Below are positions 12,601 through 21,600 of a stretch of DNA of 64,000 bases, in pieces. The stretch comes from Pecten maximus (Eukaryota). The translations under genes and the position numbers were made by a program. Below the pieces are notes generated by a model that saw only the letters and a program-made list of their open reading frames with translations, was not told the DNA's origin and made no database searches. Every line of letters begins with the position of its first letter. The stretch's first letter is position 1. The stretch spans positions 18,414,001-18,478,000 of the forward strand of contig NC_047016.1 in assembly GCF_902652985.1 (NCBI RefSeq), in the 5' to 3' direction.

Positions 12601-15600
12601 ACAATTCATGCAGTTTAAATTTTGACAGATATAAAGCCAACCTGATTGATTCACCATTATACAAATGTAACAGAAGAAAACTTCATATTACTATTTTGAA
12701 TGTTATTTATATGAACAAAAAGTCAGGAATTAGGGAATAAAATAAATAATTTGCAACACTTTACTCTGAAAGTGCTGACTCATGGAAATTACGAGCTACT
12801 TGATGATTTTAATATTTACATTCTGGAATATTTTCAAGAGTTTATTTAAGATACTAGATGTTTTGATTTAACAATATTTTGTGAAACATTCCTGGACCTT
12901 TTATATTTTAAATGCCATTTTGTTATTTAAAGATATTGTACTAACGACCTTTTTCTTAGATTAGTTAATAGATTAGCTAATTTATGTATTTCTAGATTTA
13001 ATTTATACACTTTTTTTTATTCATTTCTACATGAAAATATCCACTGATAATTTTTCTAATTTGTTAATGTACATTATAATAATTATGAAAGCTTTAAGCA
13101 TAGTGTGGGGGCATCCGTCCTGAATCTAGCACACCTGGGTGGCAGGCTAGAGGAAGAGATAATTGACACTTATGCTAGAAACCTTCATGTTGATGGATTC
13201 AAGACTTGATGTCATTCCAACACCTCAACACCAGCTACATGTAATATCTCTTTGACATCTTAATGATATATATACATAATATCTACTTTTGGATATTTCA
13301 ATGAAGTTATTATCTCCCTTTTACCAGTAACAGTTTATCAGATTGACAAATCTATAGCATATATGTACCTACTTATCTGCTTCGATCTGTTCTAATAAAA
13401 GGGACTATATGGTTAGAAAACACTATGAGAAATGGATATAAAACGTTATATTTTCTATGAGTATGTTACAAAACTAACACTTTCTCTTAATTACAAAAAT
13501 TAAAAGTCACTGCAACCATTTACGATATATATCTAAAAAATAAAAAAGGTAAACATTTCGGTCTCGAACTAATTCATAAATTACCGCTCGTAGCCTGAAA
13601 ATGCGCATGCGCATAAACCGAGAAAAAAGCAAAATGGCGGACGCAAACCAGAAAAAACGACGAGGTCCTAAAAGTTACTTGACGGAAAGTGCAAGAAAAC
13701 GAAGGAAAAAAGAATCAGAACAGAGAAGAGGAGAGGCGAGAATCTACATAAGCAAAGAGATAGATAGATGGCGAAAGGTAAAGGAAGATCTCGCACTGGA
13801 GACTGATTCTAAATTGGCCACTTTCCAATTCAGCGCCACCTGGCGGATCATAATCCAAGATGGCGGCGTATGGTGTGTCCGTGTCACAGCACATGTTTTT
13901 AGTGTTTTATCAGCGCTACGCGTCAAATTAGACTTTTTCCAGAAAATCTTCGTGCTTAAATGCGTATATAGGTAAGTAAGTCTTTATTTTGGAATGATTT
14001 TATAAGGAAATAAGGCGATATAAGACCGATATACACTTGTTCAAATACCCCAGGTGAGAAACCCTGCAGAATGCTATGTAACTCATTTACACAGGTGTAG
14101 CATTAAAAATCGGTCATTGTATGATTCACGATTCATTTATTAGTTCTTGATTTGTATAGATCGAATAGAATCAGTCACTGCTTATGAAATGACGGCATCA
14201 TAACGATGATAGCGAAATAAATAACGATATATTTATAAATACTATTTGCACCAGGTAACATTACAGGTAATTTTGAAAGGTGTTTTGAATGCCGCCATTT
14301 AGCCTATACTATTTTTAGAGCAGGTGAAAAGTCACGTGATCTATCTAGGATAGTGATCTTCCATTGATTCATTGTATTTTCTATTTCATGTCACCTGACA
14401 TTCGTATTTAAATAAATATTATAAAAAGTACTGGTATAGGCCTAGTGGTTTAAAAACATATTATGAAAACAAACTTTGATTTATATTTTTCAGATACAAA
14501 ATGCCTCATCACTGCTGTGTGCCACATTGTACAAATAATTCCAAGACAAAAGATGGTTACTCTTTTCATACATTCCCTAAAGACCCTTCAGTGGCAAAAA
14601 AGTGGGTGATTGCTATACGCAGAGATCAAGGTGCAGATTTTGATATCAACAAAGAGACAAGAGTATGCTCCGTTCACTTTAACGCAGACTCTTACCATCC
14701 TACCACTGCTATTCATGTTCGAAAACGTTTGCGAGGGACTGCTGTACCATCAGTATTTCAATGGACTGTACAGAAACCCGTCAGAAGGAAACTCAGCCTT
14801 CTCATGAAAAGTCCAAATTGTGGAAATGTAGAATCCAACAATACAAGTTTCCCAGAAAAACATGTTTTGGAAAGCTGTAATAATGATTGTGATGAGCCTT
14901 TACTTGTAGACCAGCCTTTTAGTAGTGAGGATAGTTTAACAAATGTGGATTGGGCTGAATCTCCAGACAAGAGTAAATTAAAAGAAACCAACAGTGTTCT
15001 ACTTCACATTAGGAACAAAGAGAAGTTTTCAATTCTACGGTTTTGTAATTCCGATTCTGATATCAGATATTACACAGGATTTTCATCATACCTAGCCTTA
15101 CACTGTTTCTTCACATTCTTACAACCGGCTTGTAGCTTTTTGTACTATGTAGGGACAGACAACACATCTGAAGGGACACCTTACATATTTCTCAACAAAC
15201 GTGGAAAGTCCAGATCCTTGTCGCCTATGGAAGAGTTATTTGTAACTCTTGTTCGTCTTCGGAAAGGTTTACCAGAAAAACATTTAGGTGACCTGTATAA
15301 CCTTTCTGAGGGACATGTGTCAAAAATACTCAACACTTGGATTGCTTTTCTTGACAACAGACTTTCTTCGCTACCAATTTGGCCACAAAGAGATCATGTG
15401 AATAACACCATGCCAGCAATTTTCAAGACATATTTTTCCTCTACTCGAACCATAATTGACTGCACAGAAATATTCATAGAACACCCATCTGCCTCGGAGT
15501 GTCAGCGGGAGACATTTTCCTCGTACAAACATCACAACACTGCAAAGGGTCTCATTGCCATCGCACCAAGTGGCCAAATCACATTTATTTCTCCGCTCTA

Positions 15601-18600
15601 CTCTGGGCGATGTTCAGACAAGAAAATAATTCGCCATTGTGGATTGTTGGACCTGATAGAGGAAGGAGATGGTGTCATGGTTGATCGCGGCTTTGACATT
15701 ACAACAGATCTTGAAAACAGGGGTGCTCATCTTATAATGCCTGCCTTTTTAAGTGGAAAAGACCAATTCACTCCTGATCAGTTATCTCAATCCAGAGAAA
15801 TAGCAACAGTGCGCGTCCATGTTGAGAGGGCTGTGAGGAAGATCAAAGAATTTGAAATTCTGAGACACACAGTTCCCATCACATTGTGTCCTATGCTTGA
15901 AAAGATATGGAATATTTGTGGACATTTGGCTAATTTCTCAGGGAGTGGAACATTGTTTAGACAACCCAAAGATGTCTCCACTTGTAAAGAATAAAGACAC
16001 ATTGATAATGCTCTCATGTTTAATGAAATGTCAGATTCTTTTCATATATGAACACTTTATAATATGATACATATAAAACATGTTTCCATGGTGATCAAAG
16101 TTTCAAAAATATTATGTTGAATTTTGTACAATTTTTGTGACAATAAAATGCATTTTCAAATACTGTCATAGTAGTAATACCATGAAAAAATTCCAAGCAA
16201 AAAAGTTTGTAAATAATACATTTCTACAAATGAAATATCAGAAATTGTCCAACCGATATTCATATCATCATATATATGCATCAAACATTTATCACTAGTC
16301 ATACATTGTAATATTCCAGTTGTTGTCTAGATCTATAAAAATGTATTGAAGAAATTTTATATTATCACAAGTGATGATATAGGACAACTTGGATTTCACT
16401 GCATCCTTTCTTAAGTTAATCTTTTTTCACTGTTGAAAATATAAAAATAATCTGTCTAAATTATAAACTATATTGAACCATGTATATGAAATGTCAGCAT
16501 AGCGCAGGAAATGAATATTGTTCACATATTTTTAAACTTACTCTTTACAAGAAGTAATGACTATAAATAAATAATTTAACTAAGAAACTGTGAAATTGAA
16601 TGTGGACTAAAAATACAAAATTCAATAGTAACAACTTTCATTTTAATTTTTACATGTTACAAGTCATAATTAAAAAATATCACAATTCAATGTCTTAATG
16701 ACTATGAAACTAATAACAGTATTTCAACAAAAATTCTGTACAGTACAATTGTGACAATGGACATAATTTGTATGACTTGTGCTTGTATTCAATTTTATGC
16801 TACCATACATGGTTTAAGATTGTACTAGTGTACACTGAAACCATCAATATATATGTACATTGTGCTTTTAACACGAGACATGCATATGTCCTACACTAAC
16901 TATCATATTGAACATTACATGTATATGTGTCAGTCACGAGTGCAAAAAAGGAATATAATGTATGAAATATCCTATGTAAAAATTAGAATAAATTTTGTTT
17001 TCCCCAAGTCACTTTAGAATCATGTTTTCACTTACAATACAAACTGTTTTTGTACATGTTGTATGTAAAACCCATCTGCACAGATCTAGACATGTGATAA
17101 TTATGATAATCAACACATTGAAAGAATCTAGTCAACATGCGAAAATATATGGCTACACACCATTTTTCAATATACATAAAGTAAAGTTTGTATTTAAAAT
17201 GTCAGTCTGGATGGGTATTGCATGTGCCTCTTGTACTAAACAATACAAGTCGAGACCTTCACTGATCTTTTGTGCGGAGACAATCAACAAAATGTGGGAG
17301 CAAATGGCTGAAATAGATACTGTTGAGTTTAGGCAACATATTAGAACAGAAAAACTCTGAATCACGATGTATCTCTACTATGGCAATGTCTTCCGGAGGA
17401 ACGAATACTACAAAGTCACACTTCTCTATTCCACACAAATTCAGTTGTCCTTGCACTTGATAAAAGTAGTCGTGGGATTTTTTGAGTTGGATTTCACCAG
17501 TTGTCGGGTTTTTTTCCAAATAAAAGTTTTTCTCCTTCATTTGTGATAATATACTTGTCTTCTTCTTGAATACAGAGTATGGACATTTGATTTCCACCAG
17601 TCTAATCTCATTGTTGACTTTTACTAGTCTATCAGGTGTCACTCCAAGATGGGGTAGTTTGGGGTTTACAACAAGACCAACTGGTGAACTAGCACATGGT
17701 TTTTCCTTTTGATACAAAGCCAAGGCTTGAGCTTCATAATTGATACCGTGACGGACACTTTTTGACGTGAAAAACTTCTTCTTTTGTTGAAACGTATTCA
17801 CAGGGTCTGTTGTATTTTTCAGGCGACAAAAAACACCAAAGTTAGATGCAGTAATACGGTATTGTCTCTCATTAAACCAGAATGAAGTCTTGCTCTGTAG
17901 CCTTGTATTTTTCTCTATGAACTTGGCTCTTTGGGTGTCTACACTCACATTAACTAGGTAATGTTGCTGGATGTCTGATTTGAGTGCCTGTGGCAATTCT
18001 ATTTCACTGAAGCTAGTATTGTCAACCATCTCAAACAAATCTGCGTCTAGGTTTACATCACAGCGTTGCCTACATGCCACAGGTTTGAAATTGTTTTCTC
18101 GAATGGTGTCCAACACTGGAAGGTTTAAACCTGATGCATCAAACAGGTTAACAAGTTTGGTTAGATCATTACCTGTAACAGATCTGGCAAACTCGGGCAC
18201 AGGGTTATGAGTAGCTGCAGCTGCACACAAATCCTTCTTCACGGTCTTAAACGGATCATGTTTGACAAAGTTGATGTCTCTGAACAGAAGAGGCTCATCA
18301 GACGTTGGTTTTCTAACATGCCACAATTGCAACTTGTCTGTGCATGTTTTCACATCGGGCATTGTTTTTACATCCTGGCGGTGAAAGTCAATAAGACAGA
18401 ACAATGTGGCTACAAGGTGCTTACATTGCCCATCTATTCCTGCTGGACATGAGCATGTCCCCCACTTTAATTTTGTTCCTCCATGTTTCAGGCACATGTA
18501 TATGTTATAAGTTTTCTGCTTCATTGCAGCTTGGCATTGACCTCTGAAATATATCAAGTTTCCAGTTGTGGTACTGCTCAAACCTGTTATTTTTCCCTCT

Positions 18601-21600
18601 CGGAATAGTGTCCAGCCTTCAACCCTGTGGCGTTTTGTTTTCACAAAGTCAAGAACACTTTCATCGATGTCCTCAATAGGGAAATCTTCACCCCATCCTG
18701 TCGTTGGTGCCACGCGTCCTTGAAAACTAAGGAGTCCTTTTTTTGAAATTAAAGGGTTTATTTTCATTAGTTCACAGCAGCCAGGACAAAACCATTTTGC
18801 AATGTTCTTAGCTTCTTCTTCATCAAGATTAACACAAGATGGATGGAACCAATCATCACAGAGATCACATCTAACCATTATTTTTTCTGGATCTTCTGGG
18901 GTCTTGCAAACACAGTGCAGTGTACGGTCAGTAGATGCAGACTGGTTCATCTCCTCATGATTTCTTTTTCGAGACATGGTTACTTGTTGTTGGTACCTAT
19001 ATAAGTAAACAAAAATAAATAGACACATGAAGATTAATAAGGTTAAAGCTTATCAATAAATAATAGTACAGCTTATGATATCGTAACATATTAAGCTTTT
19101 CCATGGTAATATTAGCTGTTTATATTATAATAAACCATTAAGACTATATGCATGTATTTATTGCATTTTACTGACAGAAATCCTATATTATCACTAGTGA
19201 TGATATAAGATTTTGACTGTACTGCATGGAAGAAATCTGATAAAATCACTAGTCATAATCAAATGTAAGATTTCTTGAATTCAATGCATTAACATAAAAG
19301 ATACATTCAATGTGCTTTCAGATGTCTGCAAATGCATTTTAAGTTTAACTGCAAATGCAATAAACAGAAAATTTAATAATTTCTCGTTTGATATAAAATA
19401 TATATCACTTGTATTTCAGATTTTATAATTAGATAACACTTGTGCTACACACTCGTGAAAATATAATTTATAAATAAATCTGTCATACTCATGAAATATA
19501 TCTTATATTAAATAGGTAACTCTGAATATCCTCATTGATTCCTATGAGCCATATATATATCAAAATATTCAAAAGCAGATTTTACCCTGTTCTTAAATAG
19601 GCCTAATAAACAACATAACTGAAGATATATATATTTGTCATTATAACATAAAACAGGGCCAAAAACAAAACATCAACATGACTGCTAAAAATCTTTTTTT
19701 ATTTTTGGTTAAAAAAATATTTTCATCATCATGTTTTGTCATTATCAACCTCTTGATGTCACGTGACTCTACCTGCTCGAAATATAAAATGGCGGCATTC
19801 AAAACACCTTTCAAACTTACCTGTAATGTTACCTGGTGCAAATAGTATTTATGGATATATCGTTATTTATTTCGCTATCATCGTTATGATGCCGTCATTT
19901 CATAAGCAGTGACTGATTCTATTCGATCTATACAAATCAAGAACTAATAAATGAATCGTGAATCATACAATGACCGATTTTTAATGCTACACCTGTGTAA
20001 ATGAGTTACATAGCATTCTGCAGGGTTTCTCACCTGGGGTATTTGAACAAGTGTATATCGGTCTTATATCGCCTTATTTCCTTATAAAATCATTCCAAAA
20101 TAAAGACTTACTTACCTATATACGCATTTAAGCACGAAGATTTTCTGGAAAAAGTCTAATTTGACGCGTAGCGCTGATAAAACACTAAAAACATGTGCTG
20201 TGACACGGACACACCATACGCCGCCATCTTGGATTATGATCCGCCAGGTGGCGCTGAATTGGAAAGTGGCCAATTAGCGAAGCTGCTTCTTGACAGGTAA
20301 GCTTAACGCTACGGTATCATGTTAGATATATAACTACTGTATATATAATAGATAAACGTATCCAATATTGCCATTGATGGTCCGGTATCCACCGTTTAAG
20401 CATGATTATGTTATTGAACTTCTCTACTGAAAGTGTCATCTGGTAATGGTTAAATAGTAATTGTATATAAATTTACAATAGTGACACAACGTGTTTGTTG
20501 TTGAACGCAAAGTGGGGCCCAATTGGGGGTATTCGTTCTTAGGAAAATTGATGTGGTGAATAAATACAAGGGCTATTCGATATTATATGGCGGTACTGGT
20601 GATATGAAAATAAACGACAGTGATTATAAACATCACATTTATAATAAACAGTGCAACGTATGTTTATAAAAAATATAAAATGCATATGAAATTCATTAGA
20701 CGGCAGATCTAGATTTTCATACATGTATATATGTATTGTAGTACATATACATTAATGATTATCATATATGGCAGCAAAAGTCCTTATTATTACCATTTCA
20801 TATACAACACAGTAGAGTACAATTAAATGTCATTTAAAAAAAAACCATCAGTATTGTTTTATATTCAAATAATGAATGGTATTGAAAATGTCAATTTCAG
20901 TTATGAATTTAAGAAAATATCAGATAAATCCACCACTTCAACCGGCCACATCCATATGCATTCCACACCTGCAAGAAGATATGTACCTCCACGAGAGTAT
21001 TCAGAAAGTGAAGTCACTATAAGGTATGTTTATATGATTAAGTTTGAGGCAGTTGGAAATGTGGTGTAGCATGGTATGTATAATGACCGTTATAATTACC
21101 GATCACACATACAGATACATAACTTCTATTCTAAATTTAGGACTGGCATTATCAATCATTTACTGTCAATGAAGCACATTAAGAATAAAATGTATAGTGT
21201 TGGTGGGCAAACAATTGCAAGATAAACAACATCAACGATTTATACAGTTTGTGTTGATTTGATTTCTTTTGTTTTGTTTTCCAACTGTTGGTAATTCTAT
21301 GACTAAAAAGTTTGTTCTGTATGTTTATGTGTGTTATTTATGTTTTTTTAAATGAATATTTTAGGTGGATGACTATCTGTTTGGTCTTTGAAGCTTTATG
21401 CACACATGTATTTATATAATGATTCCAGCATGTTTCTTTTATATATATGTTGCTAGATAATGGATATGTTATCATGTAATTAAGTGAAGATTTATATACA
21501 TGATGTGTATATAGGTTCTCTTTTTATTTAGTGGTCGAGAAATGTCAGGAGTGTTTGTGCAAGAATGTTGGAAAGACATGTCATTGCCTGGACCATCCGC

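What the first reader, a model, noticed from the sequence alone, without database searches (positions are those of the whole stretch)
13816..20271. The long TIRs act as mirror-image promoter + first-exon + splice-donor cassettes for both transposon genes
Each TIR has a YY1-like CAAGATGGCGGC and a strong donor TATAG|GTAAGT (13971/13972; mirror 20116/20115). Each gene has an acceptor just before its ATG (cag|ATACAAAATG at 14493; tag|GTACCAACAACAAGTAACCATG at 18997). Inference: transposase and YqaJ mRNAs start in identical promoters with the same 5' exon, coupling their expression and explaining the unusual TIR length. The TIR exon is in the same phase relative to both ORFs.
Basis: partly seen in the sequence, partly recalled or inferred. 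Interest (0 to 1): 0.7.

Follow-up and report, generated by a model that had tools for sequence, protein, structure and literature searches.

The report
Mirror-ended transposon sharing one first exon
This animal jumping gene has identical 485-base ends, and RNA data show that both of its facing genes are spliced onto the same first exon inside those ends, which likely also hold the promoter, so one duplicated control unit would drive both genes, much as in maize Mutator.

Summary
The element (13816-20271) is a young, multi-copy ISL2EU DNA transposon with a THAP-HTH-DDE transposase, a convergent PHD-YqaJ gene, an AATT target and 485-nt TIRs. Public RNA contigs show both predicted GT-AG junctions: 13971>14494 (2 of 8 runs laid) and 20116>18996 (2 of 8), from four studies. 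No fetched genomic locus holds either joined form. Both mRNAs therefore carry the same TIR exon. That transcription starts inside the TIR is likely (about 0.7) but unmapped: contigs cannot show starts, and two cross the tip into flanks. A sister family (about 60% amino-acid identity) repeats the layout; ten other families in the genome have inverted repeats of about 90 nt or less. The cassette fills only a third of the TIR, so it does not explain the length; duplication or homogenisation of one end is likelier. Coupled expression is untested and the shared phase has no shown effect. Two runs of one study show dense A-to-I-type changes confined to the TIRs, pointing to TIR double-stranded RNA. 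TIR promoters for two convergent genes are known from maize MuDR; a shared spliced TIR exon was not found in nine searches.

The parts
13812..13815 (.). AATT target, left side (AT duplication at 13813-13814 under the ISL2EU rule)
   Evidence: empty form joint 13811-20272
13816..14300 (+). Left TIR, 485 nt
   Evidence: 21 TIR matches in the genome
13816..13971 (+). Shared non-coding first exon, left copy (3' end shown, 5' end unmapped); four upstream ATGs (TIR nt 45, 55, 78, 145) whose frames all stop inside the exon
13856..13867 (+). YY1-like motif CAAGATGGCGGC (motif name recalled; binding untested); ATGGC.GC.TA.GGTGT kept in the sister family
13972..14493 (+). 522-nt GT-AG intron of the transposase mRNA; its first 329 nt lie in the TIR
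   Evidence: joint in X2 and X11
14122..14272 (-). Cluster of T>C changes in RNA contigs (A>G on minus-strand RNA), likely A-to-I editing
14291..14338 (.). Inner motif cluster: outward-pointing YY1-like GCCGCCATTT (14291-14300) and E-box CACGTG (14333-14338); decayed mirror at 19760-19796
   Evidence: function untested
14501..15994 (+). Transposase, 497 aa: THAP, HTH_Tnp_4, DDE_Tnp_4
   Evidence: intact in 6 of 8 aligned copies
15995..17258 (.). AT-rich middle; AATAAA four times on + (15990-16987), none on -; covered by contigs of the RNA-like runs
17259..18977 (-). Second gene, 572 aa: N-terminal PHD finger, C-terminal YqaJ exonuclease
   Evidence: intact in 5 of 8 aligned copies
18997..20115 (-). 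1119-nt GT-AG intron of the YqaJ mRNA; a 10-nt repeat spans both of its ends
   Evidence: joint in X10 and X3
19787..20271 (-). Right TIR, 485 nt; carries a second perfect donor CAG|GTAAGT at 19815-19822 not seen in use
19814..19869 (+). Cluster of 12 A>G changes in an RNA contig joined to unique right-side sequence, likely A-to-I editing
20116..20271 (-). Shared first exon, right copy, identical to 13816-13971; YY1-like motif at 20220-20231
20272..20275 (.). AATT target, right side

Best explanation
This is a recently active ISL2EU transposon whose two convergent genes are each spliced from an identical non-coding first exon and donor inside the 485-nt TIRs, and whose transcription likely starts near each TIR tip from a GC-rich, YY1-type promoter lying mostly downstream of the start. 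Shown: element anatomy, both junctions, identity of the exon. Inferred: start site within about the first 40 nt of the TIR; YY1 binding; translation from the ATG 7 or 19 nt after each acceptor, past four short upstream ORFs. The layout likely arose when one end, with its promoter, exon, donor and part of the intron, was copied onto the other end and kept alike by conversion, so the TIR is longer than the cassette needs. A likely side effect is that convergent transcripts run into the far TIR, pair with the near one and are edited by ADAR.
For: Joints 13971>14494 (X2, depth 29, 159 letters on the short side; X11, 28) and 20116>18996 (X10, 33; X3, 20), GT..AG on the expected strands, four studies. 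One X4 contig joins 23 nt of TIR exon to 19003-14492 on the minus strand. No fetched locus holds either joined form. X19, probably DNA, is unspliced and unchanged over 16495-20275. TIR-exon contigs of X10 and X8 stop at TIR nt 24 and 39 with no loose end listed, just before the YY1-like motif. First 110 nt are 52% GC; exon CpG o/e 1.24 against 0.76 for the window. Sister family B (about 60% aa; TIR about 310-340 nt, not alignable by blastn) keeps the tip, the ATGGC motif, a GTAAGT donor at both ends and acceptors 7 and 22 (or 0) nt before the ATGs. Mirror similarity with an E-box continues past nt 485 (score 46, best of 1000 shuffles 39). Editing-type changes: 11 and 22 non-genomic T>C on the main contigs in the left TIR, 12 A>G in the right, none of these bases in 21 genomic TIRs, 5' G under-represented (1 of 30 against 8 of 35, p 0.03). 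Precedent: MuDR TIR promoters (PMC3440606, bioRxiv 10.1101/2020.01.09.900282); YY1 positions the L1 start (PMC7778262).
Against: All runs are assembled contigs, which cannot show a start, strand or level. The X2 junction contig begins with 15 letters of a flank not found in the assembly, and an X1 contig runs 213 letters into the flank of the C10 copy; either could be read-in from a host promoter. Only X2 and X10 pass the tool's 31-letter rule for bridging. X10, X11, X3 are RNA by guess only. The YqaJ intron has a 10-nt repeat at both ends. Several contigs keep the introns. Editing-type changes appear in 2 of 7 RNA-like runs, both from one study, with no DNA of the same individuals; TIR-intron contigs of X2, X4, X8 and X11 are unedited. 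Family B splicing is predicted only, and its copies are decayed.
Confidence: 0.7

Rival explanations
1. Read-in, as described for Tc1: the TIR has no promoter of its own. Host transcripts enter from the flank and use the TIR donor, so the TIR piece is the end of a chimeric exon, and only copies in transcribed sites are expressed.
For: X2 and X1 contigs cross the TIR tip into flanks. The window copy sits in a transcribed exon of another repeat. Tc1 transcription starts in flanks (PMC3878927, passages).
Against: Exon contigs of X10 and X8 end inside the TIR. Both junctions occur across four studies. The tip is GC- and CpG-rich, with a motif kept in family B. Outward read-through also explains tip-crossing contigs.
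Confidence: 0.2
2. The main promoters are the E-box and YY1-like clusters at the inner TIR borders (about 14290-14340 and 19760-19800); the TIR-exon forms are minor isoforms, and outward transcripts from these clusters supply the edited antisense RNA.
For: The clusters exist at both ends and an E-box lies at the inner border in family B. Several contigs retain intron sequence.
Against: In X4, X10, X11 and X8 the main contigs stop at the acceptors and those intron bins have little or no cover. The inner YY1-like motif points outward.
Confidence: 0.07
3. The joints are artefacts: template switching at the 10-nt repeat, or DNA copies with deletions.
For: 10 letters fit on both sides of the YqaJ joint; three of four joint-bearing runs are RNA by guess; no matched DNA run.
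Against: Both joints read GT..AG at a consensus donor and pyrimidine-rich acceptors; the transposase joint has only 2 ambiguous letters and stands in a recorded RNA-Seq run; no genomic locus has either form.
Confidence: 0.03
4. On TIR length only: the TIR is long because the whole 485 nt is a selected regulatory cassette that keeps the two genes at equal output.
For: Long TIR and donor go together in families A and B and are absent from ten short-TIR families.
Against: Two thirds of the TIR is intron; TIR length differs between A and B; similarity decays gradually past the border; all three left-right mismatches lie in the inner part and vary among copies.
Confidence: 0.25

Closest known systems
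ISL2EU group of the PHIS superfamily (PMC4482050 passages and part of supplement Table S2; PMC9179366 passages)
   Same: THAP-HTH-DDE transposase, second ORF with YqaJ, A|AT|T target, animal host, transcription.
   Different: TIR 485 nt against 6-259 reported; a PHD finger on the YqaJ protein; 5' UTR introns with donors in the TIRs (the words intron and promoter do not occur in the main text of PMC4482050; promoter and splic- not in PMC9179366).
Maize MuDR (PMC3440606, bioRxiv 10.1101/2020.01.09.900282, PMC10401008; passages)
   Same: Long TIRs; two convergent genes, both starting in the TIRs (163 and 168 nt from the ends); antisense RNA from failed termination; ends homogenised by conversion.
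   Different: Other superfamily and kingdom. MuDR starts lie where the two TIRs begin to diverge, so the 5' ends differ. Here the exon up to the donor is identical and the promoter would lie mostly downstream of a tip-proximal start. Whether a MuDR donor lies inside a TIR I could not check (primary paper not read).
C. elegans Tc1 read-through and fold-back dsRNA (review PMC3878927, passages)
   Same: TIR-to-TIR pairing of long transcripts gives dsRNA.
   Different: Tc1 has one gene, short repeats without promoter activity and flank-driven transcription. That Tc1 TIR RNA is edited is recalled, not read.
Human L1 5' UTR promoter with YY1 site (review PMC7778262, passages)
   Same: YY1 motif near the element's tip, proposed to place the start.
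   Different: Retrotransposon with one such end; here present twice in a DNA transposon and untested.
Spy elements with TIRs of 9-1,474 bp (PMC4122938, passages)
   Same: PHIS relatives with repeated TIR expansion, called unexplained by the authors.
   Different: Spy has mostly one ORF and no target duplication; no exon or promoter role reported in the passages read.

Membership tests
ISL2EU | Transposase with THAP, HTH and DDE domains | tested here: met
   PF05485 8e-18, PF13613 3e-13, PF13359 6e-41
ISL2EU | Second ORF with YqaJ exonuclease | tested here: met
   PF09588 1e-13
ISL2EU | AT duplication within an A|AT|T target | tested here: met
   20 of 20 intact ends flanked by AATT; paralogous empty form has one AATT; a 4-bp reading fits equally
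ISL2EU | TIRs usually starting GG, 6-259 nt (descriptive range) | tested here: inconclusive
   Starts GG (4-bp reading) or TGG (AT reading); 485 nt exceeds the published range
ISL2EU | Falls in the ISL2EU clade of a DDE tree with reference elements | not tested
   No reference ISL2EU sequences were fetched; no tree built
MuDR / Mutator | MULE-type transposase and mudrB-like helper | tested here: not met
   Pfam gives DDE_Tnp_4 and YqaJ, no MULE family; works like MuDR, is not a member
MuDR-like TIR-promoter layout | Two convergent genes whose RNAs include TIR sequence at the 5' side | tested here: met
   Both joints link the TIR exon to each ORF
MuDR-like TIR-promoter layout | Start sites mapped inside the TIRs; TIR active as promoter | not testable with these tools
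   Only contigs available; ends at TIR nt 6, 24, 39 and beyond the tip
ADAR hyper-edited dsRNA | Clustered A>G on one strand, confined to an inverted repeat, 5' G avoided, absent from DNA | tested here: inconclusive
   First three met; absent from 21 reference TIRs and from X19, but no DNA of the same individuals and one study only

The most novel reading that the evidence does not exclude
A clade of animal ISL2EU transposons uses its mirror ends as both engine and brake: identical tip promoters, an identical upstream-ORF-laden leader and identical donors lock transposase and PHD-exonuclease to one regulation, while convergent read-through folds the same ends into a 485-bp duplex that ADAR edits and small-RNA pathways could cut. 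Because the TIR exon is stop-free in the frame of both ORFs, an insertion into a coding exon in either orientation can splice a host protein start onto the transposase or the exonuclease, as the window copy could.
Probability: 0.25. Interest if true: 0.65.

Novelty: new variant of a known kind. Interest (0 to 1): 0.5.

Why it matters
Why some DNA transposons carry TIRs far longer than a transposase needs is called unclear for this superfamily (PMC4122938), and the role of the ISL2EU second gene is unknown (PMC4482050). Here the TIR is shown to supply the first exon and donor of both genes, which extends the MuDR principle from maize to an unrelated animal superfamily and adds a shared spliced leader. 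The family is young (copies 98.5-99.8% identical, 5 of 8 aligned copies with both ORFs intact) and expressed, so it is a direct candidate for the first ISL2EU transposition assay; PMC9179366 (2022) knew of no proof of activity. The TIR editing signal offers a marker for how the host recognises such elements. The principle itself is not new, and promoter and coupling remain unproven, which caps the score.

Tried and rejected
Shared N-terminal peptide from the TIR exon: no in-frame ATG in family A, and the frame is interrupted in the family B copies; rejected as a conserved feature. Acceptor-to-ATG distances are 7 and 19 (A), 7 and 22 (B), all 1 mod 3, but B has alternative AGs at 0, so this is weak. 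Structured leader RNA: z = 0.43; rejected. Insertion polymorphism at this locus: the empty-site joint in five runs is explained by at least ten near-identical copies of the host repeat; not evidence of polymorphism. Source of the X2 flank letters: no exact match in the assembly or fetched loci. AATT-anchored TIR search over other families: too strict, missed even family B; replaced by copy-pair comparison. Metagenome relatives (72 loci): mostly short contigs; inverted repeats around both genes were at most 78 nt; no second-species example of the layout. Depth contrasts (for example X1 TIR exon 53 against intron 4-15) were not used to rank expression, since contig depth is flat. Uncovered intron bins are a hint only. 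Bisulfite or metabolic-labelling chemistry as source of T>C: wrong base or not confined to TIRs (general knowledge). Initiator- and DPE-like matches near the tip were noted by eye and not scored. Earlier findings: none by sequence or words; four by place, unrelated. No protein homologue search, fold or tree was run.
Full report
Anatomy. The window holds 485-nt inverted repeats at 13816-14300 and 19787-20271 with three mismatches. Between them lie a 497-aa ORF on + (14501-15994; THAP, HTH_Tnp_4, DDE_Tnp_4) and a 572-aa ORF on - (18977-17259; PHD, YqaJ). The genome search gave 21 TIR matches, about ten paired elements and one deleted derivative. Eight near-full-length copies were aligned; 6 keep the transposase, 5 the second ORF, 5 both. 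All 20 intact ends are flanked by AATT. These features match the ISL2EU definition in PMC4482050 (passages: A|AT|T target, THAP-HTH-DDE, YqaJ, TIR 6-259 bp). In the 18 rows of its Table S2 that I saw, of 25 families, 16 have TIRs of 81 bp or less, one 148 and one 259. The TIR here is outside that range.

The observation. The motif, both donors and both acceptors are at the stated places. The 156 nt from tip to donor are identical at both ends. Four ATGs in this exon open frames of 23, 10, 12 and 3 codons that all stop inside it. The third frame has no stop and no ATG and is in frame with both ORFs. Donor and motif are intact in 21 of 21 TIRs, acceptors in 8 of 8 copies. These copies are very young, so this is not evidence of selection.

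RNA test. Of 24 runs listed, 8 were laid, all as contigs. The transposase joint (522 nt, GT..AG) stands in X2, a recorded RNA-Seq run, with 159 letters on the short side, and in X11 with 28. The YqaJ joint (1119 nt, CT..AC on +) stands in X10 with 33 and X3 with 20. These are four studies; only X2 and X10 pass the tool's 31-letter rule. An X4 contig joins 23 nt of TIR exon to 19003-14492 on the minus strand. X8 contigs stop at both acceptors with 28 and 20 unlaid letters, which I could not read. X1 lists no intron joint. No other intron joint was listed, so the further donor-like sites at TIR nt about 240 and 453 are not seen in use. No fetched genomic locus holds either joined form. X19 (kind unknown, even depth, probably DNA) is unspliced over 16495-20275. 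I take the splicing as shown (about 0.95).

Where transcription starts. Not shown. TIR-exon contigs end at TIR nt 24 (X10), 39 (X8) and 6 (X1, X3). The X2 contig begins with 15 letters of a flank absent from the assembly, and an X1 contig continues 213 letters into the flank of the C10 copy. Tip-crossing RNA may be read-in or outward read-through. The tip is GC- and CpG-rich. If starts lie in the first 40 nt, little TIR is upstream of them and the promoter would be mostly downstream, as for the YY1 site of human L1 (PMC7778262, passages). I put a TIR-borne start at 0.7.

Related families. Protein searches of the genome gave 142 transposase and 127 YqaJ matches (lower bounds). Among 40 loci first fetched, one, L034, had an inverted repeat over 200 nt around both genes (317 nt, 83%). 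It belongs to a decayed sister family B (about 60% amino-acid and 65-72% coding DNA identity). Its TIR is not found by blastn with the window TIR, yet it keeps a similar tip, ATGGC.GC.TA.GGTGT, AAC|GTAAGT at about nt 170 at both ends, an inner E-box, and pyrimidine-rich acceptors just before both ATGs. No RNA was laid on B. Copy-pair comparison resolved both ends for ten other families, chosen by eye from 28 pairs; their inverted repeats were 13 to about 90 nt, and only one had a donor-like hexamer at the same place at both ends, 15 nt from the tip. The layout is thus a trait of the A+B lineage, not of ISL2EU in general. Metagenome relatives gave no further case.

TIR length. The cassette ends at nt about 162; the other two thirds are intron. 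Similarity between the ends continues, decayed, for at least 45 nt beyond the TIR and includes an E-box (score 46; best of 1000 shuffles 39). The three mismatches lie in the inner part and the left end shows three haplotypes, one identical to the right. This fits a copied and periodically homogenised end, as proposed for Mu (PMC10401008, passages), better than a cassette selected over its whole length. This is inference.

Unexpected result. X1 and X3 carry 11 and 22 non-genomic T>C changes on contigs that run from the transposase into the left TIR, and X3 carries 12 A>G on a contig running into the right TIR. None lies in unique sequence, none of these bases occurs in 21 genomic TIRs, and a 5' G is avoided (1 of 30 against 8 of 35), the known ADAR preference (recalled). 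In each case the edited strand is antisense to the TIR's own inward transcript. The simplest reading is read-through of each convergent transcript into the far TIR, with fold-back; the minus strand has no AATAAA in the middle region. Outward transcription from the inner motif cluster is an alternative. Against: both runs are from one study, four other runs have unedited TIR-intron contigs, and matched DNA is lacking.

Known systems. MuDR has two convergent genes transcribed from within its 215-220-bp TIRs, with antisense RNA from failed termination (PMC3440606; bioRxiv 10.1101/2020.01.09.900282; passages). The element works like MuDR and is not a Mutator. MuDR starts lie where its TIRs diverge; here the whole exon and donor are identical. 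Fold-back TIR dsRNA is described for Tc1 (PMC3878927, passages). Nine searches showed no report of a shared TIR exon or of ISL2EU transcript structure. The library lacks most subscription papers and Repbase records, which may annotate such introns; bioRxiv supplements were not seen, and the primary MuDR transcript map was not read.

Verdict. Observation confirmed; shared spliced TIR exon shown; TIR promoter likely; coupling untested; length not explained by the cassette. New variant of a known kind, interest 0.5.

Noticed in passing
window 13398-13815 and 20272 to at least 26316: The element is nested in the first coding exon of another multi-copy repeat (at least ten copies 97-100% alike over 412 nt; transcribed and spliced at about 20297). 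Its proteins look Kolobok-like (label recalled, not tested).
   Followed up: partly
window 13601-13971 joined to 14494: The host repeat's ORF runs in frame through the TIR exon, so splicing at this copy would give a host-repeat/transposase fusion protein. No contig showed it.
   Followed up: partly
window 18777-18914 (- strand) and about 18420-18470: The YqaJ protein has an N-terminal PHD finger (PF00628, 5e-10) and a SWIM-like CxC..CxH motif (by eye); PHD is not mentioned in PMC4122938 or in the Table S2 rows seen. It could tether the nuclease to chromatin.
   Followed up: partly
window 18994-19003 and 20113-20122: The YqaJ intron has the same ten letters across donor and acceptor; not so in family B.
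   Followed up: partly
window about 19619 (- strand): A weak mirror of the transposase acceptor (TATATATCTTCAG) lies inside the YqaJ intron; the duplicated end may once have reached the acceptor. AT-rich alignment, not significant by any test run.
   Followed up: no
G000:C6:44546742-44553190 and 44574591-44581029; C17:15114723-15121096 and 15162138-15171510: Pairs of copies with identical flanks in opposite orientation on one contig: a large inverted duplication or duplicated haplotypes in the assembly.
   Followed up: no
L055 ends (G000:C13 about 12338560 and 12343140): A short-TIR family carries GAA|GTGAGT 15 nt from both tips; it could act as a donor for read-in transcripts.
   Followed up: no
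G000:C6:7623619-7624356: A 78-nt tandem repeat contains the 36-nt tip of the family B TIR.
   Followed up: no
L044, L052, L055, L065, L067 ends: Several short-TIR families have YY1-like, E-box or TGACGTCA motifs near one or both ends, so end-proximal promoters may be general in this group.
   Followed up: partly
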